Numbered from the stretch's first letter, positions 13,523-23,412 are shown. The stretch is DNA of 64,000 bases from Syntrophales bacterium (GCA_963668175.1 OY764159.1:4503305-4567304); one strand, 5' to 3'. Made by a program: numbers and translations. Notes: generated by a model not told the origin, from the letters alone.

Positions 13523-14269
13523 ATGCAGATGATATACGGTATTAATCCTGTCATGGAGGCAATAAAGACCGTCGGGGGAGGCCTCGAAAAAATCATCGTC
13601 ATGAGATCGAAAGCGGGGAAGCCCGTGCAGACCATCCTCCAGATGGCAGCCCGTGAAGGCATCCCCGTTGAATTCAGGGACAAGTCCCATTTGGAACAAC
13701 TGGCACCGGGGGAGTCGCATCAGGGAATCATCGGCTTGTGCAAGGATTACGGATATGCCGACGTCGACGATATTATCGCCAACCGCCATGCGTCGCTCCG
13801 TCGCGACCTGGTCCTCATCCTGGACGGCATAACGGATCCCCAGAACCTTGGATCTTTGGTGAGGACAGCTCATTGCCTGGGGGCTAACGGTGTGATCATC
13901 CCGGAACACAGGGCCGCCCCGGTAACGGCTGCTGCAGTAAAGGCGTCCGCCGGAACGGCCTACTATGTGCCGATAGCCATGGTTTCAAACCTGGCCAATA
14001 CGATAGAATATCTCAAGACGAAAGGATTCTGGGCCTATGGAACCTATGCGCCGGATGGTGACGACATACGGTCCGTCAATTTCGACGAAAAGGTCGCCTT
14101 GGTGATGGGAAGCGAGGGGAAAGGAATCAGGGAACTTGTCAGGAAGAAATGTGACTTTCTGGTATCCATCCCCATGCTGGGAAAGATCGATTCATTAAAT
14201 GTGTCTGTCGCCGCGGGTATCGCCATTTATGAAATCCTGCACAGGCAGGGTACATTAAATATGCATTGA
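13523..14269 (+). CDS. rlmB: 23S rRNA (guanosine-2'-O)-methyltransferase RlmB (SpoU family)
   Basis: IYGINPVMEA, HQGI, LDGITDPQNLG, GSEGKG, IPMLG..DSLNVSVA. Confidence 0.93.
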   Translation: MQMIYGINPVMEAIKTVGGGLEKIIVMRSKAGKPVQTILQMAAREGIPVEFRDKSHLEQLAPGESHQGIIGLCKDYGYADVDDIIANRHASLRRDLVLILDGITDPQNLGSLVRTAHCLGANGVIIPEHRAAPVTAAAVKASAGTAYYVPIAMVSNLANTIEYLKTKGFWAYGTYAPDGDDIRSVNFDEKVALVMGSEGKGIRELVRKKCDFLVSIPMLGKIDSLNVSVAAGIAIYEILHRQGTLNMH

Positions 14270-14331
14270 TGTCGAAAGCAGAAACATTTATACCAAATCA
14301 ACTGTTTTCAACGGAAGAAAGGGAATGAACT

Positions 14332-15540
14332 ATGCCGGTATTTCTATGGGAAGCGACAACCCGCAAAGGCGTTGAGCGAACGGGTGAAATCGATGCCGTC
14401 GATCAGGCCGCCGTACGAACCATTCTCCGCAAGCAAGGCTTCAAATCGATCACCGTAAAAGCCAAACCCAAGGATATCTTGGAATATCTGCCTTTTCTCA
14501 AGGAAAAAGTGAAGGAGAAGAACGTCGTTGTCTTCTGCCGTATTTTTGCGACCATGATCAATGCGGGCCTTCCCTTGATTCAGTGCCTGGAATTGTTGGC
14601 CGGCCAGGAGGAAAACAAGACCTTCAAAAAAGTCATTCTCGCGGTTAAGGACGATATCGAAGGGGGCTCGACATTGTGCGACGCCTTGAAGAAATACCCG
14701 GATATCTTCGACCAGCTCTTCGTCAACCTGATCGCCGCCGGCGAAAGCGGCGGTATCCTGGACGTCATCCTGAACCGTTTGTCGACTTACCTGGAAAAGG
14801 CGGCCAAACTGAAGAGCAAGGTAAAGGGCGCCATGACGTATCCGGCAGCCGTTCTCGTCATCTCCTTATGCGTCGTCGCTCTGCTGTTGATCAAGGTTAT
14901 TCCCGTCTTCCAGAAAATGTTCGAAGGAATGGGCGGACAATTGCCTGCTCCCACGCAGTTCCTGGTTAATGCCAGTCAATTCGCACAGAGTTATTGGTGG
15001 ATCATGCTGGGTATTATCGTCGCAATCGTTTTCGCCTTCAAGACATTCAGAAAAACCGCAAGAGGTCAATACATCACGGACGATTTGGCGCTGAGATCGC
15101 CCGTCTTCGGTCCCCTCCTGAAAAAAGTGGCGGTCGCAAAATTCACGAGAACATTGTCCACCATGATGTCCAGCGGCGTTCCGATCCTGGAAGGCCTGAC
15201 CATCGTGAGCAGGACCGCCGGAAACGTCATCATCGAAAACGCCCTTCTCAAAGTCAGACAGAGCATCAGCGAAGGTAAAACCATCGCCGAGCCGCTGATG
15301 GAGACCAAGCTTTTTCCGAACATGGTCGTACAGATGATTTCCGTCGGGGAAGCAACAGGCGCTCTCGATTCCATGCTCTCGAAGATTGCCGACTTCTATG
15401 ACGACGAAGTCGATGCCGCTGTCGAAGCGATGACCGCCCTGCTGGAACCGTTCATGATGGTTTTCCTTGGCGGTGTCGTAGGTGGCATGATCGTCGCCAT
15501 GTACCTCCCCATCTTCAAAATGGCATCCGTCGTCGGTTGA
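14332..15540 (+). CDS. pilC: Type IV pilus inner-membrane platform protein PilC (T2SS F family)
   Basis: ATMINAGLPL, AGESGGILD, KGAMTYP, MMSSGVPI, VGEATGALD, AMYLPIF. Confidence 0.93.
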   Translation: MPVFLWEATTRKGVERTGEIDAVDQAAVRTILRKQGFKSITVKAKPKDILEYLPFLKEKVKEKNVVVFCRIFATMINAGLPLIQCLELLAGQEENKTFKKVILAVKDDIEGGSTLCDALKKYPDIFDQLFVNLIAAGESGGILDVILNRLSTYLEKAAKLKSKVKGAMTYPAAVLVISLCVVALLLIKVIPVFQKMFEGMGGQLPAPTQFLVNASQFAQSYWWIMLGIIVAIVFAFKTFRKTARGQYITDDLALRSPVFGPLLKKVAVAKFTRTLSTMMSSGVPILEGLTIVSRTAGNVIIENALLKVRQSISEGKTIAEPLMETKLFPNMVVQMISVGEATGALDSMLSKIADFYDDEVDAAVEAMTALLEPFMMVFLGGVVGGMIVAMYLPIFKMASVVG

Positions 15541-15600
15541 CGATCAACACGGCCTGTCAAGAATCAGCTGTTGCCGAAAAGGTAGGAAGTTGATATAAAA

Positions 15601-15677
15601 TGGTCGGGATGGCGCGATTTGAACGCGCGACTCCTGCGTCCCGAACGCAGTGCCCTACCAAGCTGGGCCACATCCCG
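15601..15677 (-). tRNA. tRNA-Pro(CGG)
   Basis: Reverse complement CGGGATGTGGCCCAGCTTGGTAGGGCACTGCGTTCGGGACGCAGGAGTCGCGCGTTCAAATCGCGCCATCCCGACCA: cloverleaf, anticodon arm CTGCG-TTCGGGA-CGCAG, encoded CCA. Confidence 0.96.
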
Positions 15678-15872
15678 ACACGGCAGGCACGATATAAAAT
15701 TTGTTTCTAAATGTCCATTCTTTTTTTATACGGGCGGGCAAGATTTTAGCCGACCGGCCGGCCCCGACAACAGGCGGCATGAACCGTCCGCGGTTTATTG
15801 CTTCCATTTGCGGGGAAGATATGATAGCAGGCAACGCAAACGGGCAACATATTCGATATATGGAGCGGAAAA

Positions 15873-16286
15873 GTGATTATTTACGAATTGCGCTGCAAAA
15901 ACAAGCATCAGTTTGAGGGCTGGTTTCAAGACCGGAACGCCTTTGAGGAACAAAAATCGAAAAATCTCATCCTTTGCCCGGTGTGCGGTGATGCCGGAGT
16001 GGAGATTGTTCTGTCGTCGCTGACCGTCATGGGTAAGGATACACCCTCCTATGAGAAGTCCCCCAAAGGGATGTCGCCTGTCCAAACCTTGAATGCGCTG
16101 CATGACTTCATCAACAGGAATTTTGAGGATGTCGGTGACAAATTTGCCGATGTTGCCCTGAAAATACATCGCGGTGAGGAAGAACAGCGGAATATTAAAG
16201 GCACAACGACAAGGAACGAAGAAGAAGCGCTCGTTGAAGAGGGCATTCACTTCATTAAAATTCCCATCACCAAATTTAACAGCTGA
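15873..16286 (+). CDS. DUF1178-family zinc-ribbon protein
   Basis: IIYELRC...HQFEGWF, CPVCG, FEDVGDKFADVALKIH, RNIKG; GTG start after GGAG. Confidence 0.88.
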   Translation: MIIYELRCKNKHQFEGWFQDRNAFEEQKSKNLILCPVCGDAGVEIVLSSLTVMGKDTPSYEKSPKGMSPVQTLNALHDFINRNFEDVGDKFADVALKIHRGEEEQRNIKGTTTRNEEEALVEEGIHFIKIPITKFNS

Positions 16287-16299
16287 AACCACTCTCACC

Positions 16300-18612
16300 A
16301 TGCAAGATTTCTTTACGGACATCACCAAAACCATTGGGAACTCGCCTCTTGTCGAAATCAAACGCCTAAATCAGAATAATAATGTAAAAATATTCGCGAA
16401 ATTGGAGAGTTTCAACCCGGGAGGATCGATTAAAGACCGTGTTGCTTTCGCCATGATTGAAGGTGCGGAACGTCGCGGCGAACTGACCCGGGACAAAATC
16501 ATCCTCGAAGCGACCAGCGGCAATACGGGGATCGGTTTGGCCTTTATCGCGGCAGCGAAGGGTTACAGGTTATGCCTGGCCATGTCGGAGGCTGCAAGCG
16601 AAGAGAGAAAGAAAATCCTGAAAGCCATGGGAGCGGAACTGCTTTTCACGCCGGCGAATCTCGGCACCGACGGCGCCATCGAGACGGTCTACAAAATGCT
16701 CCGGGAACATCCGGATAAATATTACGGCACGGACCAGTTCAATAACGAAGACAACGTCCTGGCGCATTATCACGGTACGGGCGAGGAAATCTGGCGACAG
16801 ACGGGCGGCGCCGTGACGATGGTCGTCGCCACCCTTGGAACGACAGGAACGGCAATGGGCGTCTCAATGCGCCTCAAGGAGTACAATCCGGCCATTCGCA
16901 TTATCGGCGTCGAGCCGTACCTGCAGCACAAGATCCAGGGGCTCAAGAACATGAAGGAATCTTACCGGCCGGGAATCTTCGACAAGAGCCGCCTCGATGA
17001 AAAGATCAACATCCTCGATGAAGACGCCTTCGAGATGGCCAGGCGCCTGGCCCGGGAAGAGGGACTCCTGGTGGGGATGAGTTCAGGCGCAGCCATGCAC
17101 GTCGCGATTGAGAAGGCCAAAACCATGAGCGAAGGATTGGTGGTCGTCATCCTCCCGGACAGCGGCGAAAGATATCTAAGCACGGAGCTCTTCACGGATA
17201 AACAGGAAACGACGCTCCGGGTCTTCAATACGCTGACGAAAGAAAAAATGTTTTTCAAACCGATCAGCCCTGAGACCGTATTGATGCATTCGTGCGGACC
17301 CACCGTTCATGAGGTTCCGCATATCGGAAGTTACCGCCGTTTTGTCGTGTCCGATATGATCCAGCGGTATCTTGAATACAAGGGATACCAAGTGAAGCAT
17401 GTCATGAATATCATCGATCTCGCCGACCGCGCCATCCGCGGCGCGGAGCGAGCCAACATGGAGATGGCGGCCTATTCGGAAAAATGCACTGCATCCTTCA
17501 TGAACGGCATCGATAAACTGAACATCAAGCACGAAGAACCTTATCCCAAGGCGAGCGAGAATGTCGACGCCATGGTCCGTCTCACGGAGCGGCTGATCGA
17601 CAAAGGCTATGCCTATGAAAAACTGAGGTCCGTTTATTTCGATATCTCCAAACTAGATGATTACGGCGTATTGTCGAACATCGACCTCAAGAAAGTTAAA
17701 CCGGGCAAGACCATCGACCAGGACGATTATGCCAAGGACAGTCCCGTCGATTTCACCCTCCTTAAAAGATCCACCCTGCAGGAACTGAAGAAGGGTGTTT
17801 ATTTCACGACCCCGTGGGGGAGCGTCCGGCCCAGCTGGCATCTGGAATGTGCGGCTATCTCACTGAAATACCTCAATGAATCGTTCGACATTCATGCCAG
17901 CGGTTCCGACATCATTTTCCCCCATTGTGAAAATGTCATGGCAATCGGAAAAGCTGCGACAGGGAAGCAGATGGCCAATTACTGGCTCAACACGGAGCTC
18001 CTGATGATCGAGGGGAAGAAGATGTCGCGATCCCTGAACAACACCCTGACGATCGAGGAACTGGAAGCAAAGGGATACGCCGGCCGGGAGATCAGATTTT
18101 TTCTTCTCAGCGCCCATTACCGAAAACCGCTGAATTTTTCCTTCGGAGCCCTGGCCTCGGCCAAGAACACCGTGACGAGACTCGATCGGTTCATCCAAAG
18201 GCTGATGTATTTCACCCCCGGCAGCGGTCATCCCGATACGGAACAGCTCATTTATGACCTCAAGCAGGGTTTTGCCCAGGCCATGGATGACGATTTCAAC
18301 ATGTCGGGGGCCTTGGCGTCGATTTTCGAATTCGTCAAGAAGGTGAATCTTCCGCTCTCCCAAGGCCAATTGACGGAAAAAGAGAGGGACCGCATCCTGG
18401 AGACGATGACCTCGATCGATAAGGTCCTTGGTGTTATGAACTTTGAAAAACAGATCATCGACAGCGCGACGCTGAAGCTCATCGAAGAGCGGGAAGCCTT
18501 GAGAAAGGACGGCCGCTGGGATGAGTCGGACGCCATCAGGAGAAAACTGGCAGAGATGGGGGTGGAGATTTCCGATACCCCGGAGGGCATGTTCTGGAGG
18601 TTGAAATCATGA
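16300..18612 (+). CDS. Fusion protein: PLP-dependent cysteine synthase (CysM-like) + cysteinyl-tRNA synthetase-like domain
   Basis: N-terminal IGNSPLV, NPGGSIKDR (PLP Lys), ATSGNTG, GTTGT, SSGA, PDSGERYLS; C-terminal CGPTV, HIGS, WHLEC, DIH, FPH, KMSRS, MDDDFN and CysRS anticodon helices; single uninterrupted frame; start placed at ATG 16300. Confidence 0.92.
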   Translation: MQDFFTDITKTIGNSPLVEIKRLNQNNNVKIFAKLESFNPGGSIKDRVAFAMIEGAERRGELTRDKIILEATSGNTGIGLAFIAAAKGYRLCLAMSEAASEERKKILKAMGAELLFTPANLGTDGAIETVYKMLREHPDKYYGTDQFNNEDNVLAHYHGTGEEIWRQTGGAVTMVVATLGTTGTAMGVSMRLKEYNPAIRIIGVEPYLQHKIQGLKNMKESYRPGIFDKSRLDEKINILDEDAFEMARRLAREEGLLVGMSSGAAMHVAIEKAKTMSEGLVVVILPDSGERYLSTELFTDKQETTLRVFNTLTKEKMFFKPISPETVLMHSCGPTVHEVPHIGSYRRFVVSDMIQRYLEYKGYQVKHVMNIIDLADRAIRGAERANMEMAAYSEKCTASFMNGIDKLNIKHEEPYPKASENVDAMVRLTERLIDKGYAYEKLRSVYFDISKLDDYGVLSNIDLKKVKPGKTIDQDDYAKDSPVDFTLLKRSTLQELKKGVYFTTPWGSVRPSWHLECAAISLKYLNESFDIHASGSDIIFPHCENVMAIGKAATGKQMANYWLNTELLMIEGKKMSRSLNNTLTIEELEAKGYAGREIRFFLLSAHYRKPLNFSFGALASAKNTVTRLDRFIQRLMYFTPGSGHPDTEQLIYDLKQGFAQAMDDDFNMSGALASIFEFVKKVNLPLSQGQLTEKERDRILETMTSIDKVLGVMNFEKQIIDSATLKLIEEREALRKDGRWDESDAIRRKLAEMGVEISDTPEGMFWRLKS

Positions 18613-19436
18613 ATGGCGAGACAAGAAGATCGATCATTGCAGGTTCATGGTACCCCGGCAATCCCGATGTCTTGCGCGAAGACATTGAAGAGTATTTAAA
18701 AGAGGCATCATCAGGAGACATACAGGGCGAGATATTGGGCGTCGTAGCGCCCCACGCAGGCTACGTCTATTCAGGAGGCGTGGCCGCCTATGCCTATAAA
18801 CCCATCCGGGGCAAGCGATACGACACGGTCATCGTCATCAGCCCGTCGCACCGCATGGCCTTTCCGGGAGCCTCCATATACCGCCGGGGAGGCTATGAGA
18901 CGCCTTTGGGCATCGTACCCGTTGATGCGGAGATGTCGGACTTCCTTATCAATAACAGCACGATCATCAGCGATGCACCTGCGGCGCACATTCAGGAACA
19001 TGCCCTCGAAATACAGCTGCCTTTCCTGCAGACCGTTCTCGGTCCATTCCTCCTTGTACCCATCATTATGGGCAGCCAGGATAGAAGGACCTGCGAATCG
19101 CTTGCCAAATCGATAACGGAGGCCGCCGGCGATCAGCAGGTCTTGATCGTGGGCAGTTCCGACTTATCACACTTCCACGATTACCGCAGGGCGGTCAGTA
19201 TCGATCAGACGGTGTTGCAGCATCTCGATAAGATGGATGCCGTCGGACTTCTGAACGATCTCAAGACGGGCCGCGGCGAGGCATGCGGCGGAGGACCCGC
19301 CGCCGTCACCATGATGGCGGCAGGCATGCGGGGAGCGACCGAAGCGAAAGTGCTTAAATACGCGAATTCCGGCGATGTTACGGGGGACAGGGACCGGGTT
19401 GTCGGCTACGCCGCCGCCGTATTCTGGAAACCATAA
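18609..19436 (+). CDS. amrB: AmmeMemoRadiSam system protein B (MEMO1 family)
   Basis: AGSWYP, PHAGYVYSG, SPSH, EHALE, SSDLSH, ACG, SGD, VVGY; ATGA overlap with the upstream stop. Confidence 0.92.
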   Translation: MNGETRRSIIAGSWYPGNPDVLREDIEEYLKEASSGDIQGEILGVVAPHAGYVYSGGVAAYAYKPIRGKRYDTVIVISPSHRMAFPGASIYRRGGYETPLGIVPVDAEMSDFLINNSTIISDAPAAHIQEHALEIQLPFLQTVLGPFLLVPIIMGSQDRRTCESLAKSITEAAGDQQVLIVGSSDLSHFHDYRRAVSIDQTVLQHLDKMDAVGLLNDLKTGRGEACGGGPAAVTMMAAGMRGATEAKVLKYANSGDVTGDRDRVVGYAAAVFWKP

Positions 19437-19466
19437 AGCACAGTCTCAGGACAGATTGGGGGGCCT

Positions 19467-20018
19467 GTGAATCTGACGGAAAGCGAAAAAGAGCATCTGC
19501 TCAACATAGCCAAAACCGCAGTGAAGACGCGGCTGGCCGGGAACGATACGCGGGAGAAGAAAACACCCGACATGCCCGTTTTGAAAGAAAAACGGGGGGC
19601 ATTCGTCACCTTAAAGAAAAGAGGGCAGTTGCGCGGCTGCATCGGTTACATCCAGGCCGTTAAGCCCCTCGGACAAACCATAGATGAAATGGCCCAGGCG
19701 GCCGCATTCGGCGATCCGAGATTCCCGCCTGTGACGAAGGAGGAATTGCCCCTCCTGTCATTCGAGATTTCCGTCTTGACGCCGCTTAAGGAAATAGAAA
19801 ATGTGGACGAAATCGAGGTAGGCGTCCACGGGATATATATCGTCAAGGGATTCCACTCCGGCCTGCTCCTTCCCCAAGTCGCAACGGAATACGGATGGGA
19901 CCGGAAGACCTTTCTCGAACATACCTGCTATAAGGCGGGACTTTCCCCCCGGGCGTGGCAGGATAAGGACGCAAAGATTTACATCTTTTCCGCGGATATA
20001 TTTTGTGATTCCGTATAG
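19467..20018 (+). CDS. amrA: AmmeMemoRadiSam system protein A (AMMECR1 family)
   Basis: GAFVTL, LRGCIG, DPRF, EISVLT, GLLLPQVA, KAGL. Confidence 0.93.
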   Translation: MNLTESEKEHLLNIAKTAVKTRLAGNDTREKKTPDMPVLKEKRGAFVTLKKRGQLRGCIGYIQAVKPLGQTIDEMAQAAAFGDPRFPPVTKEELPLLSFEISVLTPLKEIENVDEIEVGVHGIYIVKGFHSGLLLPQVATEYGWDRKTFLEHTCYKAGLSPRAWQDKDAKIYIFSADIFCDSV

Positions 20019-20037
20019 TTGCCTGATAAAAAAACAT

Positions 20038-20066
20038 TTGACTAAAATACGGGGGATCATTAAGAT
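20038..20066 (+). promoter_or_regulatory. sigma70-type promoter of gap-tpiA
   Basis: TTGACT (20038-20043), 17 nt spacer, TAAGAT (20061-20066), then AAGGAG RBS. Confidence 0.6.
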
Positions 20067-20102
20067 CAGGCCCCGTTAAAATCCATTCACAAGGAGCGAC
20101 AT

Positions 20103-21110
20103 ATGGCTGTTAAAGTAGCTATCAATGGGTTCGGCAGAGTTGGTCGGTATATCGTCAGGGCCTGCCTGGGCAACGGCGACATCGAGATCGTGGCCATCAA
20201 CTCGAGAGCGAAAGTGGATACGCTGGCACACCTTCTGAAATACGATTCCGTCCACGGCAAGATTGAGGCCGATGTCTCCACGGAAGGCAATACCATGATC
20301 GTCGGCGGCCAGAAGATCACGATTACGAGCGAAACATCCAATCTGGCACAATTGCCCTGGAAATCCATGGGCGTCGAGATCGTCCTAGAATCGACGGGCA
20401 AATTCAGAAAGAAAGACGAAGTGTCGGGCCATATCGCAGCAGGGGCCAAGAAAGTCATTCTGGCCGTTCCCGGCAAGGGTATTGACGGAACATTTGTCAT
20501 GGGCGTGAACGAGGGCTCGTACGATCCCCAGAAACACCACATCATCTCCAATGCGTCATGCACGACAAACTGCCTTGCGCCGGTCGCGAAAGTCCTTCAG
20601 GACCAATTTAAAATCGTCAAGGGCTTCATGACGACCGTCCACGCTTTCACAATGGACCAGAGGCTTCTTGACGGGTCCCACAAGGATTTGAGGCGGGCGC
20701 GCGCGGCCTCCATGTCGATCGTTCCGACGTCGACGGGGGCGACTTCAGCCGTTGCGGAAGTCATCCCGGAGCTTAAAGGCAAGCTCGACGGCGTCGCCCT
20801 GAGGGTGCCGACACCGAACGTGTCCCTCGTCGATTTCGCCGTCGAAGTGGAAAAGAAGGTCACCGTCAACGATGTCAACGGGGCATTGAAGGATGCGGCA
20901 GCAGGAAAACTGAAGGGCATCCTGGCCTATTCCGATGAGGAACTGGTCAGTGTCGACTTCACAAGCAGTCCGTATTCATCCATTGTGGATGCCCCCCTGA
21001 CTTCGGTTATCGACGGCAACTTCGTCAAAGTCTTTTCCTGGTACGACAACGAAAGCGGTTATGCATGCAGAATGAGAGACCTTGCCATCTACATCAGTCG
21101 TAAAGGATAA
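20103..21110 (+). CDS. gap: Type I glyceraldehyde-3-phosphate dehydrogenase
   Basis: INGFGRVG, YDSVHG, SNASCTTNCLAP, RVPTPNVS, WYDNE. Confidence 0.97.
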   Translation: MAVKVAINGFGRVGRYIVRACLGNGDIEIVAINSRAKVDTLAHLLKYDSVHGKIEADVSTEGNTMIVGGQKITITSETSNLAQLPWKSMGVEIVLESTGKFRKKDEVSGHIAAGAKKVILAVPGKGIDGTFVMGVNEGSYDPQKHHIISNASCTTNCLAPVAKVLQDQFKIVKGFMTTVHAFTMDQRLLDGSHKDLRRARAASMSIVPTSTGATSAVAEVIPELKGKLDGVALRVPTPNVSLVDFAVEVEKKVTVNDVNGALKDAAAGKLKGILAYSDEELVSVDFTSSPYSSIVDAPLTSVIDGNFVKVFSWYDNESGYACRMRDLAIYISRKG

Positions 21111-21118
21111 GACGAGCA

Positions 21119-21871
21119 TTGACGAAACCATTCATTGTTGCCAACTGGAAGATGCACAAGACGATCAGTGAAGCGGTTGCTTTTGCCGAGTCTTTGAGAA
21201 AACTTCATACGGATCCGGCGAAGTGCGATCTCGTGATTGCACCTCCGTTTACCGCCATACGCTCCATTGCTGACGCTTTGAAGGGATCGCCAATAGGCAT
21301 TGCCGCCCAGAATCTGCATCACCATCGTGACGGCGCCTTTACGGGAGAAATATCGGCGGGAATGCTGGCCGAAGCGGGATGTCAATATGTTATTATCGGA
21401 CATTCCGAGCGGAGATTACATTTCGGCGAAAGCGATAATATTATTCATCAAAAAATTAAAATGGCCCTTGCGTTCCACTTGGTGCCGATCCTTTGTATAG
21501 GAGAGACGCTTCCGGAACGCGAGAGGGAAGAAACATTTGAGGTCATAGAAAAACAGTTAAAAGAAGGATTGAATAATTTCGGGGCAGGTGATATAGGACG
21601 GCTCGTCATCGCCTATGAGCCGGTATGGGCCATAGGCACGGGAAGAACAGCAACGCCGGAACAGGCTGAAAATGTTCATGTTCATATCAGACATTTGCTG
21701 TCATCCCAATGCGGTGACCAGGTTGCGCGTCAGACAAGCATTATTTACGGCGGCAGCGTCACCGGGGATAACATTGCCGGACTCAAGGAAAAGCAAGCCA
21801 TCAACGGTGTTCTCGTCGGCGGTGCCAGCTTAAAGGTTGAATCGTTTGCCAGAATTGCCGGCTATGAATGA
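21119..21871 (+). CDS. tpiA: Triose-phosphate isomerase
   Basis: ANWKM, GAFTGEIS, GHSERR, AYEPVWAIGTG, YGGSV, LVGGASL; TTG start. Confidence 0.97.
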   Translation: MTKPFIVANWKMHKTISEAVAFAESLRKLHTDPAKCDLVIAPPFTAIRSIADALKGSPIGIAAQNLHHHRDGAFTGEISAGMLAEAGCQYVIIGHSERRLHFGESDNIIHQKIKMALAFHLVPILCIGETLPEREREETFEVIEKQLKEGLNNFGAGDIGRLVIAYEPVWAIGTGRTATPEQAENVHVHIRHLLSSQCGDQVARQTSIIYGGSVTGDNIAGLKEKQAINGVLVGGASLKVESFARIAGYE

Positions 21872-22013
21872 TCGGTTTCGTGGCAAGACTGTAGGATAAT
21901 AGAGGATAAACCCTAACAGGGTCCGGAAATCATAAGGGAAGAGATACCCGGCGGAGATCATTTCATACCAGATAAGATCTCTAAAATATCTCGCAAAGTC
22001 AAGGAGCGGTTAA

Positions 22014-22382
22014 GTGCAGATATTTATCACTATTATTCACGTAGTAGTCTGTTTTGTGCTGGTACTTGTTGTCCTTCTGCAGGCTGGCAAAGGGGCGAGC
22101 ATGGGGGCTGCTTTTGGCGGGTCGAGCCAGACGGTTTTTGGAAGCAGCGGTCCCAGCACATTTCTGAGCAAGATGACGACATGGGTGGCTGTGGTCTTTA
22201 TGTTGACCTCTTTGGCCCTATCCCATCCATACTTCTATAGTTCAGGCGGCGGGTCTCTCATGAAAGGTGCCAAACAGCAGGATACGAAAGCCGCGCCGCA
22301 GGTTCCGGCGCAGCAACCGCAGGCGCCGTCTGCACCGGCGGCACAAGGACAGCCGGCACCTCCTGCAGCGCCGGGGAAGTAG
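22014..22382 (+). CDS. secG: Preprotein translocase subunit SecG
   Basis: [23 protein letters not shown], two TM helices; conserved tpiA-secG-tRNA-Leu order. Confidence 0.95.
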
Positions 22383-22484
22383 TGAACTGTTAAAAGGAGA
22401 TAAAATAAGAAGAAACCTGTTTCGATAGGTTGAGAGGTTCTGCGGAGAATCAGTAGGGAATTTGCACACCACGATAAAATACAT

Positions 22485-22571
22485 GCCGAAGTGGTGGAAT
22501 TTGGTAGACACGCTATCTTGAGGGGGTAGTGGGCCACGCCCGTCCGGGTTCAAGTCCCGGCTTCGGCACCA
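22485..22571 (+). tRNA. tRNA-Leu(GAG)
   Basis: GCCGAAG acceptor stem pairs with CTTCGGC; anticodon arm CTATC-TTGAGGG-GGTAG; long variable arm; GTTCAAG T-loop; encoded CCA. Confidence 0.96.
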
Positions 22572-22581
22572 TGAAATGAAC

Positions 22582-22614
22582 AAATAGCGCAGCAAAACAT
22601 GTTGCGCTATTTTT
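22582..22614 (+). terminator. Intrinsic terminator after tRNA-Leu
   Basis: AAATAGCGCAGCA / TGTTGCGCTATTT stem (one G-U pair) ending in a T run. Confidence 0.7.
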
Positions 22615-22791
22615 CTGATACATCCCTTTGAGATCGGCTGAACAAGAGCGACACGAACCGCAGAAGCTCGATTTCAGGCATTTTCAATGCCTTCGGCATT
22701 TCGACATCCAATCCTGTCATCGTCATGGACAATTAACCTATCAAATAATCAGGGAACATAACCACTAAGAATTCGACAGGAGGCTTTCTTC

Positions 22792-23412
22792 ATGTTTTTG
22801 GTTCCTAAAGAAGAAAAATTTTTTGACCATTTTGAGCAGTTGGCGGATAAAATCGAAAAAGGCGGACAGTTATTTCTCGATATTCTTGACAATTACGAAC
22901 ATTCCGAGGCCAAAGTCTCTACGCTGAAGGAAATAGAACACGAAGCGGACAAGATAACCCACCAGATATACGCCAAGATGCACCAGACGTTTTTAACCCC
23001 GCTGGACCGTGAGGATATTTATGCCCTTGCCAACAAAATGGACAGCATTCTGGACATCATTGAGGCGTCCGCCGTTCGTTTATATCTTTATAAGGTCAAA
23101 TCGCCCGTCAATGAAATCAAGGAATTAGCCTTGACGCTGGAAAAAGCTATCGCGCTTGTGAAGGTCATTGTCCACGCGCTCCGGAATAAGAAGAATTCCG
23201 AGATGGCCATCAAAACCTGTGTCGAGATCAACACCCTGGAAAATGAAGGCGATTACATTTTAAGGCAGGCGATAGCGAGGCTTTTTGAGCGGGAAAAGGA
23301 TGCTGTTGAGCTGCTCAAGCAGAAAGAAATTCTGGAAAGGGTTGAAGAAGGTCTCGATACATGTGAGGATGTTTCCAATATTGTGGAAGGAATTATCCTG
23401 AAGCATGGATAG
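22792..23412 (+). CDS. DUF47 phosphate-transport regulator (PhoU-like)
   Basis: PKEEKFF, EHEAD, TFLTPLDREDI, LENEGD, D.CEDV; overlaps the PiT gene. Confidence 0.92.
   Translation: MFLVPKEEKFFDHFEQLADKIEKGGQLFLDILDNYEHSEAKVSTLKEIEHEADKITHQIYAKMHQTFLTPLDREDIYALANKMDSILDIIEASAVRLYLYKVKSPVNEIKELALTLEKAIALVKVIVHALRNKKNSEMAIKTCVEINTLENEGDYILRQAIARLFEREKDAVELLKQKEILERVEEGLDTCEDVSNIVEGIILKHG

What the first reader, a model, noticed from the sequence alone, without database searches (positions are those of the whole stretch)
16300..18612. Cysteine synthase fused to a CysRS domain with altered catalytic motifs
Seen: one 770-aa frame joins an intact PLP cysteine synthase (SIKDR lysine; GTTGT loop, CysM-like rather than CysK GTGGT) to a class I CysRS at about 17170-17240. 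The CysRS half deviates at conserved positions: HIGH/HIGN to HIGS (17320-17331), FALWK to FTLLK, GRPGWH to VRPSWH, DIHGGG to DIHASG, FPHHENE to FPHCENV (17917-17937) and KMSKS to KMSRS (18019-18033). Established: in E. coli CysRS the zinc ligands are C28, C209, H234 and E238. Here the two Cys and the first His align, but the E238 equivalent is Val. The anticodon-binding helix pattern (R..LR...W..SD.IR..L...G..I.D...G..W) is retained. Inference: the protein may channel newly made Cys to tRNA-Cys, or load a precursor (O-acetyl/O-phospho-Ser) or another sulfur amino acid and convert it on the tRNA (analogous to SepRS/SepCysS), or act as a tRNA-binding regulatory module. I do not know of a biochemical characterisation, but such fusions may already be annotated in related genomes.
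Basis: partly seen in the sequence, partly recalled or inferred. Interest (0 to 1): 0.78.

Follow-up and report, generated by a model that had tools for sequence, protein, structure and literature searches.

The report
Cysteine synthase fused to CysRS paralogue
One gene joins a working cysteine-making enzyme to a remodelled second copy of the enzyme that loads cysteine onto its tRNA; the family is common in sulfate-reducer and syntroph bacteria, labelled as an ordinary tRNA ligase, and apparently unstudied.

Summary
Window 16300-18612 (+) is one 770-aa frame: a CysM-like PLP cysteine synthase (residues 1-300) joined by about 5 residues to a full-length CysRS-like module.

It is not the housekeeping CysRS. 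The genome also has a canonical cysS, a cysK and one tRNA-Cys gene.

The fusion occurs in 160 of 401 sampled genomes of the phylum and 49 of 61 of the order. By my tally, 150 of the 160 carriers also have a second CysRS-family gene.

The fused CysRS-like domains form one clade apart from canonical CysRS (SH-aLRT 99). None of 122 keeps the second KMSKS lysine. 28 of 44 sampled phylum copies have lost HIGH and/or KMSKS. The anticodon-contact residues are kept at 94-97%, and the CysM motifs in 44 of 44.

Within the order the CysRS-like half is as conserved as canonical CysRS (65% against 64% identity).

In 28 of 49 carriers the fusion is the only cysteine synthase. 27 of those 28 have no cysE match.

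Best reading, at confidence 0.42: a CysE-independent cysteine synthase with a tRNA-Cys-binding paralogue that couples synthesis to tRNA-Cys. A weak or specialised ligase activity is not excluded.

This scan has already noted the same family on other genomes.

The parts
16300..18612 (+). Whole fused gene: 770 aa plus stop.
   Evidence: Homologues of 766-793 aa align over 97-100% of it.
16300..17199 (+). CysM-like PLP cysteine synthase half, residues 1-300.
   Evidence: PALP 3.3e-69. TIGR01136 cysKM scores 364.5 bits against a cut-off of 344.15. Foldseek 2bhs_A (E. coli CysM) TMt 0.96, rmsd 1.7.
16432..16434 (+). PLP-binding lysine K45, in SIKDR.
   Evidence: Invariant in 78 of 78 order-level copies, 44 of 44 phylum copies and all 81 rows of alignment A1.
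16516..16533 (+). TSGNTG substrate-carboxylate loop, residues 72-77. That this loop binds the carboxylate is my recalled knowledge of the family.
   Evidence: SGNTG in 78 of 78; [TS]SGNTG in 44 of 44.
16945..16947 (+). K216, which aligns with R210 of E. coli/Salmonella CysM in the short CysM-type loop.
   Evidence: alignment. K216 is invariant in A1.
17200..17214 (+). Short linker, residues 301-305.
   Evidence: PALP and CysM alignments end at 298-301; the CysRS alignments start at 305-306. pLDDT dips to 73-78 in this stretch.
17215..18609 (+). CysRS-like half, residues 306-770. All CysRS domains are present.
   Evidence: TIGR00435 scores 399.5 bits against a cut-off of 340. 1u0b_B TMt 0.84. 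It falls in the paralogue clade, not the canonical one.
17293..17295 (+). C332, equivalent to zinc ligand C28.
   Evidence: alignment. Kept at 0.91 in the order and 0.80 in the phylum fused copies.
17320..17331 (+). HIGS, the remnant of the HIGH motif.
   Evidence: H[LIM]G[NST] in the order: H in 77 of 78, G in 78 of 78. In phylum fused copies H is kept at only 0.48.
17848..17850 (+). C517, equivalent to zinc ligand C209.
   Evidence: 78 of 78 in the order; 0.86 in phylum fused copies.
17917..17937 (+). FPHCENV: H542 (=H234, kept), C543 (=H235, changed to C), V546 (=E238, changed to V).
   Evidence: In the order, C in 73 of 78 and V or I in 77 of 78. In canonical enzymes H is 0.99 and E is 1.00.
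18019..18033 (+). KMSRS: the second lysine of KMSKS is arginine.
   Evidence: R in 76 of 78. K is 0.99 in canonical enzymes and occurs in 0 of 122 fused copies.
18502..18540 (+). Anticodon-contact residues R735, W740, D744 and R747, equivalent to E. coli R427, W432, D436 and R439.
   Evidence: alignment. The role of these residues comes from PMC13449415 passages. They are kept at 0.95-1.00 in fused copies.
15873..16286 (+). Upstream DUF1178 gene, 13 nt before the start codon. Context only.
   Evidence: Pfam 4.7e-40. Adjacent in all order-level loci that have upstream flank and in 0 of 44 loci from other families.
18609..20018 (+). Downstream AmmeMemoRadiSam B (18609-19436, ATGA overlap with the fusion's stop) and A (19467-20018). 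Context only.
   Evidence: Present downstream in only part of the order and in 0 of 44 loci elsewhere.

Best explanation
SHOWN. The gene belongs to an old, phylum-wide family in which a CysM-type cysteine synthase is fused to a CysRS paralogue. The genome charges tRNA-Cys with a separate canonical CysRS.

The CysM half has every catalytic motif. In most relatives of the order it is the only cysteine synthase. It persists in genomes that lack serine acetyltransferase.

INFERRED.
1. The CysM half makes free cysteine by a CysE-independent route, possibly from O-phosphoserine.
2. The CysRS-like half still docks tRNA-Cys through its intact anticodon-binding and acceptor-side domains.
3. In this order it probably also still binds a metal with cysteine, and a nucleotide, in a remodelled pocket: C332, C517, H542, the new C543, V546 in place of Glu, and KMSRS.
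4. Its role is to couple cysteine synthesis to tRNA-Cys. It either senses the charged or uncharged state of the tRNA, or cysteine, and tunes the synthase, or it holds tRNA-Cys next to the site where cysteine is made.

In logic it resembles HisZ with HisG, or the HisRS-like domain of GCN2, more than a second housekeeping synthetase.
For: Paralogue, not the housekeeping enzyme.
- The own genome has a canonical cysS (555 bits) with canonical motifs, as well as the fusion (401 bits).
- 47 of 49 carriers in the order list a canonical cysS.
- By my tally, 150 of 160 carriers in the phylum have two or more CysRS-family matches. Of the other 10: 3 come from genomes 62-79% complete; 3 show a canonical-strength match only (G102, G139 and G372; for G139 and G372 one search lists a separate canonical-like hit); 4 look like gaps or split genes (G101 and G130 checked, G214 and G414 judged from their sister genomes).

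One clade.
- The fused domains are separated from canonical CysRS at SH-aLRT 99 and local support 96-99.

Decay of chemistry, retention of tRNA reading.
- The second KMSKS lysine is present in 0 of 122 fused copies.
- W184, G201 and Q241 are present in none of the 122. G226 is kept in 0 of the 78 order copies and at 0.14 in the 44 phylum copies.
- 28 of 44 phylum copies have lost HIGH and/or KMSKS.
- The seven C-terminal invariant positions, including R427, D436 and R439, are kept at 0.94-0.97.
- PMC13449415 (passages) places these residues in the anticodon-binding domain and describes Arg427 as hydrogen-bonding G34.

CysM half intact.
- Its motifs are present in 44 of 44 and 78 of 78 copies.
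- 52 of the 73 invariant columns of alignment A1 lie in this half.

Asymmetry of loss.
- The fusion is the only cysKM match in 28 of 49 carriers.
- 27 of those 28 have no cysE match. 18 of the 21 carriers with another cysKM match do have one.

Not a relic in this order.
- Across 13 genome pairs, identity to the window is 79.4% for the CysM half, 65.4% for the CysRS-like half and 63.7% for canonical CysS.

Structure.
- The linker is about 5 residues. The AF2 model has pLDDT 90.1 and pTM 0.75.
- Domain-domain prediction gave weak support only: score 0.44, best control 0.00. That mark was reached by 116 of 157 solved complexes and 2 of 215 mismatched pairs, but at 0.60 or under by only 18 of those 157 and by both mismatches that passed. 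The runs agreed in at least 0% of their contacts, and the partner's pLDDT was at least 84.
Against: No binding or regulation was measured. tRNA binding is inferred from conserved residues only.

In this order the ATP-site remnants and three zinc ligands are strictly conserved (70 of 78 keep all of them). That is what a working ligase would show.
- HxGN is the commonest canonical form.
- K269A E. coli CysRS still supported translation in a cell-free system (PMC5660078 passages). So K to R need not kill the chemistry.

The score against TIGR00435 is above its cut-off.

I found no conserved operon partner or regulatory RNA that would point to regulation.

In about a fifth of the sampled phylum copies the zinc ligands are gone as well (9 of 44). 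A cysteine-sensing role therefore cannot be universal.

The cysE absence rests on one HMM at E<=1e-35 in draft genomes.
Confidence: 0.42

Rival explanations
1. Bifunctional enzyme with a working second CysRS. The CysM half makes cysteine and the adjacent CysRS half adenylates it and charges tRNA-Cys directly (substrate channelling). This would keep free cysteine low.
For: TIGR00435 scores 399.5 bits, above the 340 cut-off. All CysRS domains and the anticodon contacts are present. HxG[NST], KMS-S, C28, C209 and H234 are kept in 70 of 78 copies in the order. The half is as conserved as canonical CysS. K269A E. coli CysRS kept translation activity in a cell-free system (PMC5660078 passages). An independent CysM-CysRS fusion with canonical motifs exists in a Nanoarchaeota MAG (P0124).
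Against: I found no solid case where it is the sole CysRS. Stand-alone cysK, by contrast, is often lost. Seven positions that are at least 95% invariant in canonical enzymes are replaced across the clade, including zinc ligand E238 in this order. Sister lineages keep the fusion with no ATP motifs.
Confidence: 0.25
2. The CysRS-like half is a structural relic. It is kept only because the synthase needs it to fold, dimerise or stay stable, and it binds no ligand or tRNA.
For: Catalytic motifs are lost in 28 of 44 phylum copies. No conserved partner genes were found.
Against: The anticodon-contact residues are as conserved as in working enzymes, at 0.94-0.97. Within the order the half evolves as slowly as the essential CysRS, and the remodelled pocket residues are fixed. 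Stand-alone CysM-like genes of about 300 aa exist in non-carriers of the order, so the synthase can exist without the extra half.
Confidence: 0.1
3. Cysteine ligase for a non-tRNA acceptor, or a sulfur-species enzyme. The CysRS-like half activates cysteine or a relative for transfer to a small molecule or protein (MshC-like), or makes cysteine persulfide (the CARS/CPERS activity).
For: MshC shows that a CysRS paralogue can take a new acceptor (PMC2922099 and PMC9437257 passages). The remodelled metal pocket (E238V, H235C, and Y26H and Y33H in this order) suggests a changed ligand. The habitat is sulfide-rich, which I infer from the lineage names.
Against: TIGR03447 MshC scores 183 bits against a cut-off of 485. 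Retained anticodon contacts argue that tRNA is still the partner. Of the four lysines needed for CPERS activity (K73, K76, K266, K269; PMC5660078 passages), the window keeps only K266; the other three are R377, R380 and R577.
Confidence: 0.08
4. tRNA-dependent cysteine synthesis in one polypeptide. The remodelled CysRS half loads a precursor (O-phosphoserine or O-acetylserine) onto tRNA-Cys and the PLP half converts it on the tRNA, as an analogue of SepRS/SepCysS.
For: The fusion persists without cysE, so a phosphoserine-type substrate is plausible. The zinc pocket loses its acidic ligand and gains His and Cys residues. The linker is short.
Against: The free-carboxylate-binding TSGNTG loop is invariant; its role is my recalled knowledge. 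Many relatives have no ATP motifs yet keep an intact CysM half. The genome has its own CysRS plus cysK and a cysE-like gene. No SepRS or SepCysS is present, so nothing else could load the precursor.
Confidence: 0.05

Closest known systems
Canonical bacterial cysteinyl-tRNA synthetase (E. coli CysS; PDB 1LI5, 1U0B; NCBIfam TIGR00435)
   Same: Same fold and full domain set (1u0b_B TMt 0.84). The HMM score is above the cut-off. Three of the four zinc ligands and the anticodon contacts R427, W432, D436 and R439 are kept.
   Different: It falls in a separate clade (SH-aLRT 99). It carries K269R, E238V, H235C, W184L, G201V, G226S and Q241I. It is fused to a cysteine synthase. I found no solid case where it is the only CysRS of a genome. 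Relatives lose HIGH and KMSKS.
Cysteine synthase B / O-acetylserine sulfhydrylase B (CysM; PDB 2BHS, 2JC3)
   Same: Best solved match of the N-terminal half (255 bits; TMt 0.96). The PLP lysine, the Asn loop and the GT[TS]GT loop are intact. It has the short CysM-type loop, with K216 at the place of R210.
   Different: It scores below the cysM equivalog cut-off (363.5 against 394.2). It carries a 470-aa CysRS-like extension. It occurs in genomes with no cysE match, so its substrate may not be O-acetylserine.
HisZ with HisG (HisRS paralogue as regulatory subunit of ATP phosphoribosyltransferase); role recalled, not checked in a paper here
   Same: A synthetase paralogue for amino acid X is physically tied to an enzyme that makes X. 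It is not the housekeeping synthetase, and catalytic motifs are dispensable across the family.
   Different: [quoted passage not shown] Here the anticodon domain is the best-kept part, and the window's copy still has most active-site residues. Regulation is untested.
HisRS-like domain of GCN2 kinase (uncharged-tRNA sensor); recalled
   Same: A degenerate synthetase-like domain is fused to an enzyme, and tRNA is the presumed signal.
   Different: GCN2 is eukaryotic, its effector domain is a kinase, and it binds many tRNAs. Here the anticodon contacts specific for GCA are kept.
SepRS-SepCysS(-SepCysE) transsulfursome (PMC8762117 and PMC5424206 passages)
   Same: It links a PLP enzyme, a synthetase and tRNA-Cys in cysteine formation.
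   Different: The protein families are different (PheRS-like class II and a fold-type I PLP enzyme; recalled). Neither SepRS nor SepCysS is present in this genome. The PLP half here looks like a free-amino-acid enzyme.
CysRS* of Desulfobacterales (PMC5389517 passages) and MshC (PMC9437257 passages)
   Same: These are the only CysRS paralogues listed in the 2022 review, and CysRS* occurs in a related group of bacteria.
   Different: CysRS* lacks the anticodon-binding domain and sits beside selB* and selC*. MshC is tRNA-independent. The fusion keeps the anticodon domain, has no such neighbours, and scores 183 bits against a 485 cut-off for MshC.

Membership tests
Canonical CysRS (TIGR00435 equivalog) | HMM score above the curated cut-off over the full length | tested here: met
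   399.5 bits against 340, model positions 1-464 of 466.
Canonical CysRS (TIGR00435 equivalog) | KMSKS with both lysines | tested here: not met
   The window has KMSRS. The second K is 0.99 in 100 canonical enzymes and is present in 0 of 122 fused copies.
Canonical CysRS (TIGR00435 equivalog) | HIGH-type motif H-x-G-[HN] | tested here: inconclusive
   The window has HIGS. Canonical enzymes have N in 70 and H in 30 of 100. Order-level fused copies have N in 45, S in 22 and T in 11.
Canonical CysRS (TIGR00435 equivalog) | Four zinc ligands C28, C209, H234 and E238 | tested here: not met
   C332, C517 and H542 are kept. E238 is V546, and V or I in 77 of 78 copies. E is 1.00 in canonical enzymes.
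Canonical CysRS (TIGR00435 equivalog) | Anticodon-binding residues R427, W432, D436 and R439 | tested here: met
   R735, W740, D744 and R747. Kept at 0.95-1.00 in fused copies. Their role is from PMC13449415 passages.
Canonical CysRS (TIGR00435 equivalog) | Groups with canonical CysRS in a tree | tested here: not met
   The split between 28 paralogue rows and 30 canonical rows has SH-aLRT 99. FastTree gives 96-99.
Canonical CysRS (TIGR00435 equivalog) | Cys-tRNA-Cys formation | not testable with these tools
   This needs an aminoacylation assay. Indirectly, I found no solid case where it is the sole CysRS.
Cysteine synthase CysK/CysM (TIGR01136 subfamily) | HMM score above the cut-off; PLP lysine, Asn loop and Gly-rich phosphate loop present | tested here: met
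   364.5 bits against 344.15. K45, TSGNTG and GTTGT are invariant.
CysM equivalog (TIGR01138 / NF008735) | Score above the equivalog cut-off | tested here: not met
   363.5 against 394.2, and 339.2 against 413.
HisZ-like regulatory synthetase paralogue (works-like comparison) | A paralogue tied to the cognate biosynthetic enzyme, existing beside the housekeeping synthetase | tested here: met
   It is fused to CysM. Canonical cysS is present in the own genome and in 47 of 49 (order) and 150 of 160 (phylum) carriers.
HisZ-like regulatory synthetase paralogue (works-like comparison) | Catalytic motifs lost | tested here: inconclusive
   Lost in 28 of 44 phylum copies, but largely kept in the window and in 70 of 78 order copies.
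HisZ-like regulatory synthetase paralogue (works-like comparison) | Allosteric control of the biosynthetic enzyme | not testable with these tools
   This needs enzyme kinetics with and without tRNA-Cys, cysteine and ATP.
SepRS/SepCysS pathway | SepRS and SepCysS genes present | tested here: not met
   Best hits are 22.8 bits (cut-off 380.65) and 29.6 bits (cut-off 365.25).
MshC (TIGR03447) | Score above the cut-off | tested here: not met
   183 bits against 485.1.
CysRS* (Mukai et al., PMC5389517) | No anticodon-binding domain; located next to selB* and selC* | tested here: not met
   DALR_2 and CysS_C domains are present. The neighbours are DUF1178, Memo and AMMECR1. The only tRNAs nearby are Pro and Leu.
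CARS persulfide synthase activity (PMC5660078) | Lysines K73, K76, K266 and K269 | tested here: not met
   The window has R377, R380, K574 and R577. The requirement is from the paper's passages.

The most novel reading that the evidence does not exclude
In this order the remodelled pocket (Glu ligand lost, new Cys and His residues, ATP-site remnants kept) no longer selects cysteine. Instead it selects a substrate or product of the attached PLP domain: O-phosphoserine, or a cysteine derivative such as the persulfide. The single polypeptide would then make a special aminoacyl-tRNA-Cys on the tRNA. That would be a bacterial one-chain counterpart of SepRS/SepCysS, built from CysRS and CysM parts. 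The genomes that have this fusion as their only cysteine synthase, and no cysE, would make cysteine this way.
Probability: 0.05. Interest if true: 0.9.

Novelty: new variant of a known kind. Interest (0 to 1): 0.6.

Why it matters
About 40% of the sampled species of a major anaerobe phylum (160 of 401) carry this gene. In most carriers of the order it is the only recognisable cysteine synthase. Annotation pipelines nevertheless call it an ordinary tRNA ligase or an ordinary cysteine synthase.

If the CysRS-derived half reads tRNA-Cys, it would be a protein-level link between making an amino acid and the state of its tRNA in bacteria. It would be a cysteine counterpart to HisZ/HisG.

The family also offers a natural series, from near-intact to fully dead active sites on one scaffold. 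That is useful for studying how synthetases turn into pseudo-enzymes.

The cysE-independent distribution points to an unrecognised cysteine route in syntrophs and sulfate reducers.

Tried and rejected
**Assembly artefact.** Rejected on cross-genome conservation. Contigs of runs X2 and X3 cover 16900-17600 in one piece with no differences, but they may come from the source sample. Raw reads of X10 laid nothing, so that was no test.

**Expression.** No RNA holder was listed, so nothing can be said.

**Operon partners.** DUF1178 upstream and Memo/AMMECR1 downstream are order-level synteny only. They appear in 0 of 44 loci of other families. I built a list of 165 flanking ORFs and scanned only the first 88 with Pfam. 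They were heterogeneous: tmk plus an HD/OB protein, MurJ, SurE and others. The other 77 were not scanned.

**'orf85' (15619-15876).** Its apparent conservation is the tRNA-Pro gene on the other strand.

**Regulatory RNA.** Rfam at E<=0.01 over 14000-23000 found only the two tRNAs.

**A special tRNA-Cys.** ARAGORN finds one tRNA-Cys(GCA) and one tRNA-Sec in the whole genome. Odd 8/4 tRNAs could be missed.

**SepRS/SepCysS.** Not found.

**O-phosphoserine specificity.** A 41-aa loop query matched only E. coli and Salmonella CysM. A resemblance I recalled to the phosphoserine-specific CysM of M. tuberculosis could not be checked and is not used.

**Geometry between the two active sites.** The model tool gives no coordinates, so no distance could be measured.

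**Literature.** I made nine search calls.
- One on AmmeMemoRadiSam and one on anticodon residues.
- None turned up a paper on a CysK/CysM-CysRS fusion.
- I read passages only of PMC2922099, PMC1779556, PMC5389517, PMC9437257, PMC8762117, PMC5424206, PMC13449415 and PMC5660078. I opened no supplements.
- Subscription journals are not covered.


Full report
**1. The observation**

Window 16300-18612 (+) is an uninterrupted 770-codon frame.
- Pfam finds PALP at residues 8-287 and, after a gap of about 30 residues, tRNA-synt_1e at 319-622, DALR_2 at 658-713 and CysS_C at 726-767.
- NCBIfam scores it above the cut-offs of both cysS (TIGR00435, 399.5 against 340) and the cysK/M subfamily (364.5 against 344.15). 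It falls below the cysM and cysK equivalog cut-offs.
- The alignment to E. coli CysRS confirms C28=C332, C209=C517, H234=H542, H235=C543, E238=V546 and K269=R577.
- The start at ATG 16300, rather than the mechanical GTG at 16174, follows from two things. The DUF1178 gene ends at 16286. Homologues align from residue 1.

**2. Not an artefact, and not rare**

- The search for homologous proteins listed 120 fused proteins of 752-803 aa at 69-98% identity. Where they are named, the name is 'cysteine--tRNA ligase' or 'cysteinyl-tRNA synthetase', for example in Syntrophus aciditrophicus and S. gentianae.
- Genome contigs held 263 relatives. The 79 loci kept are Syntrophaceae, Smithella/Smithellaceae and other Syntrophales MAGs.
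- In 61 genomes of the order, 49 carry the fusion: 44 full length, one partial with a TGA, and four split at contig ends. Twelve do not carry it.
- In 401 genomes sampled from the phylum, 160 have a full-length fused match at E<=1e-110, with 45-78% identity. That is 142 of 340 good-quality genomes and 99 of 255 genera.
- Contigs of two public runs cross the junction without a difference, but they may come from the source sample.

**3. What else the genome has**

- The complete genome (one contig, 4.57 Mb) has a canonical cysS of 489 aa scoring 555 bits, with HVGH, GRPGWH, DIHGGG, FPHHENE and KMSKS.
- It also has a third, truncated CysRS-like gene of 417 aa scoring 287 bits.
- It has a canonical cysK (452 bits) with a cysE-like gene about 4 kb away.
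- It has one tRNA-Cys(GCA) and one tRNA-Sec, and no SepRS or SepCysS.

So the fusion is a paralogue on both sides in this genome.

**4. The CysRS-like half is a distinct, old paralogue**

A search of 1.84 billion representatives returned further fused subfamilies and some stand-alone or fragmentary relatives.
- In trees of the CysRS domains, the fused proteins of this phylum lie on one side of a branch with SH-aLRT 99 (IQ-TREE quick, 58 rows: 28 paralogue rows against 30 canonical rows). FastTree local support is 96-99 (122 rows).
- One fused protein, from a Nanoarchaeota MAG with fully canonical motifs (P0124), sits inside the canonical clade. It is an independent fusion.
- The root is not inferred, so 'clade' assumes that it lies among the canonical enzymes.

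**5. What is kept and what decays**

I compared 100 canonical representatives, 78 fused copies of the order and 44 fused copies from about 40 other families of the phylum.

*CysM half.* S[IV]KDR, [TS]SGNTG and GT[TS]GT are present in all 44 and all 78. Identity to the window is 56-69% even in distant families.

*CysRS-like half.* Identity is 29-49% in the 44 loci sampled from other families of the phylum.

Signature replacements. In canonical enzymes these residues are at least 95% conserved. In the fused copies they are almost never seen:

| E. coli residue | Replacement in fused copies |
|---|---|
| K269 | R or other; K in 0 of 122 |
| W184 | L or F |
| G201 | V |
| G226 | S; G kept at 0.00 in the order and 0.14 in the phylum sample |
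| Q241 | I |

ATP motifs in the phylum sample. The first His of HIGH is kept at 0.48. The M and S of KMSKS are kept at 0.39 and 0.20.
- 16 of 44 keep HxG, K[MIL]S and three zinc ligands.
- 13 have lost both ATP motifs but keep C28, C209 and H234.
- 9 have lost zinc ligands as well.
- A Desulfovibrio ferrophilus protein of this last kind is annotated simply 'cysteine synthase'.

Anticodon domain. The seven canonical-invariant positions of the C-terminal domain are kept at 0.94 (phylum) to 0.97 (order). They include the equivalents of R427, D436 and R439. The W432 position stays aromatic. A 2026 paper (PMC13449415, passages) treats exactly these four residues as the anticodon-binding contacts and describes Arg427 as hydrogen-bonding G34.

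CP domain. Its invariant positions (Y439, Y446, Y455, G456, K479, D484, F485, L487, G507, P511) are 100% kept.

The pattern is decay of the chemistry, most strongly at the ATP site, with retention of the tRNA-reading surfaces.

**6. The window's own lineage is at the conservative end**

- In the order, H-x-G-[NST], KMSRS, C28, C209 and H234 are near-invariant. 70 of 78 keep all of them.
- The order adds its own fixed changes: E238 to V or I (77 of 78), H235 to C (73 of 78), Y33 to H (76 of 78), Y26 to H or R, and H256 to N.
- The fourth HIGH position is not informative. It is N in 70 and H in 30 of 100 canonical enzymes.
- Across 13 genomes of the order, identity to the window averages 79.4% for the CysM half, 65.4% for the CysRS-like half and 63.7% for the canonical CysS of the same genomes.

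So here the CysRS-like half is under constraint as strong as an essential synthetase. It is not a drifting relic. Its pocket has been rebuilt rather than abandoned.

**7. Which half is indispensable**

*Canonical cysS.* It is listed in 47 of the 49 carriers of the order. The other two may be among 17 unlisted rows.

By my manual tally of the per-genome tables, 150 of the 160 carriers in the phylum have two or more CysRS-family matches at E<=1e-60. The other ten are:
- three genomes that are 62-79% complete;
- three where the single match is of canonical strength (G102, G139, G372). For G139 and G372, one search also lists a separate canonical-like hit. The fused half of G102 and G139 is degenerate;
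- four with a single weaker match: G101, G130, G214 and G414.

Of those last four, one search shows G130's fusion is in pieces on three contigs. G101 has a fully degenerate fusion plus a separate CysRS-like stretch interrupted by a TGA. G214 and G414 have sister genomes that carry both genes.

I therefore found no solid case where the fusion is the only CysRS.

*Cysteine synthase.* The opposite holds. In 28 of 49 carriers of the order, the fusion is the only match to cysKM at E<=1e-40. These include all three genomes of the window's own family.
- 27 of these 28 have no cysE match at E<=1e-35. The exception is 86% complete.
- 18 of the 21 carriers with a further cysKM match do have a cysE match, often next to cysK.

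So cysK and cysE come and go together, even within genera, while the fusion stays. The CysM half therefore appears to be a working cysteine synthase that does not depend on CysE. O-phosphoserine is the obvious alternative substrate, but I could not test that. The CysM-type loop has an invariant Lys where E. coli CysM has R210.

**8. Surroundings**

- Upstream synteny (gmk, pyrF, a SpoU methylase, a T2SS-F protein, tRNA-Pro on the other strand, DUF1178) is conserved through the order.
- AmmeMemoRadiSam B and A follow the fusion in only part of the order.
- None of these genes is adjacent in 44 loci of other families. The 88 flanking ORFs I scanned there, out of 165 listed, show no recurrent partner.
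- No riboswitch or T-box was found.

The function must be read from the protein itself.

**9. Structure**

- AlphaFold2 with an 81-row alignment gives pLDDT 90.1 and pTM 0.75. Only residues 468-480 score low.
- Foldseek matches the two halves separately: CysRS-tRNA complex 1u0b_B at TMt 0.84 and CysM 2bhs_A at TMt 0.96. No chain covers both, and TMq is at most 0.51.
- A two-chain prediction of the halves gave weak support only: score 0.44, best control 0.00. That mark was reached by 116 of 157 solved complexes and 2 of 215 mismatched pairs, but at 0.60 or under by only 18 of those 157 and by both passing mismatches. Run agreement in contacts was at least 0%, and the partner's pLDDT was at least 84. 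I do not lean on this result.

**10. Reading**

*Shown.* This is a paralogous CysRS-derived module with intact tRNA-reading residues. It is permanently tied to a functional, CysE-independent cysteine synthase, and it exists beside a normal CysRS.

*Inferred.* The module docks tRNA-Cys. In this order it probably still binds a metal with cysteine, and a nucleotide. It couples cysteine synthesis to tRNA-Cys, as a sensor or regulator or by local hand-over.

*Rivals.*
- The main rival is that the order's copies are still real, perhaps slow or specialised, ligases. Their conserved ATP-site remnants allow this. So does the report that K269A E. coli CysRS still supports translation in a cell-free system (PMC5660078 passages).
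- The persulfide-synthase activity described in that paper needs K73, K76, K266 and K269. The window keeps only K266.
- Loading of a precursor onto tRNA is the boldest reading. I put it at about 5%.

**11. Novelty**

- A 2022 review lists only CysRS* and MshC as CysRS paralogues (PMC9437257 passages).
- Subscription journals and supplements were not covered.
- This scan has already met the family on other genomes, with look-alike stretches in 37 windows. The earlier follow-ups reached similar readings. I treated them as leads.
- I re-tested one earlier claim, that the fusion is the only cysteine synthase in about half of its carriers. I find 28 of 49 in this order.
- As far as the notes shown to me go, three results are new here: the cysE co-distribution, the rate comparison with canonical CysS, and the absence of any solid sole-CysRS case.

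Noticed in passing
Own genome G000:C1:3596751-3598004 (L003:1462-2715, +); outside the window: A third CysRS-family gene of 417 aa with no anticodon-binding domain. It has HIGN and KMSKS, but the C209 position and neighbouring pocket residues are changed. It scores 286 bits, below the 340 cut-off. It resembles the truncated CysRS* in layout. However, its flanks in the 4.2-kb locus hold a large membrane-protein-like ORF and a second ORF, neither scanned against a family library. No tRNA gene lies near it in the ARAGORN list.
   Followed up: partly
window 15601-15677 (-), overlapping the mechanical ORF at 15619-15876 (+): The apparent conservation of a short 85-aa ORF between the T2SS-F gene and DUF1178 (about 108-nt tblastn hits in most loci) is really the tRNA-Pro(CGG) gene on the opposite strand.
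   Followed up: yes
window 18609-20018 (+); G000:C1:3121626-3122627 and C1:806701-807699: AmmeMemoRadiSam system proteins B and A directly follow the fusion, with the start of B overlapping its stop (ATGA). The radical SAM partner is not adjacent. Two copies lie elsewhere in the genome, and each match is reported with one TAG inside it. I did not look at those.
   Followed up: partly
Order-level genomes, for example G011:C76 and G048:C114: Stand-alone cysK and cysE are often neighbours. They are present or missing together, even between species of one genus, while the fused cysteine synthase stays.
   Followed up: yes
L174 (G101:C2:129263-130036) and L165 (G101:C3): This is a complete genome of another family. 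Its fused copy has lost every CysRS catalytic motif. Its only other CysRS-like stretch is reported with an in-frame TGA. That could be a selenocysteine codon, an error or a broken gene.
   Followed up: no
P0124 (768 aa; named 'cysteine--tRNA ligase', Nanoarchaeota MAG): An independent cysteine synthase-CysRS fusion with fully canonical CysRS motifs. It groups inside the canonical clade, so the same architecture arose at least twice.
   Followed up: partly
window 16287-16299: Only 13 nt separate the DUF1178 stop from the fusion's ATG, and I see no purine-rich ribosome-binding site in them. Translation may be coupled to the upstream gene.
   Followed up: no
L139 (G226:C12) and L140 (G202:C100): Two fused genes of other families lie in much longer open frames (1403 and 929 aa). 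They may carry a further domain, or they may simply lack a nearby stop.
   Followed up: no
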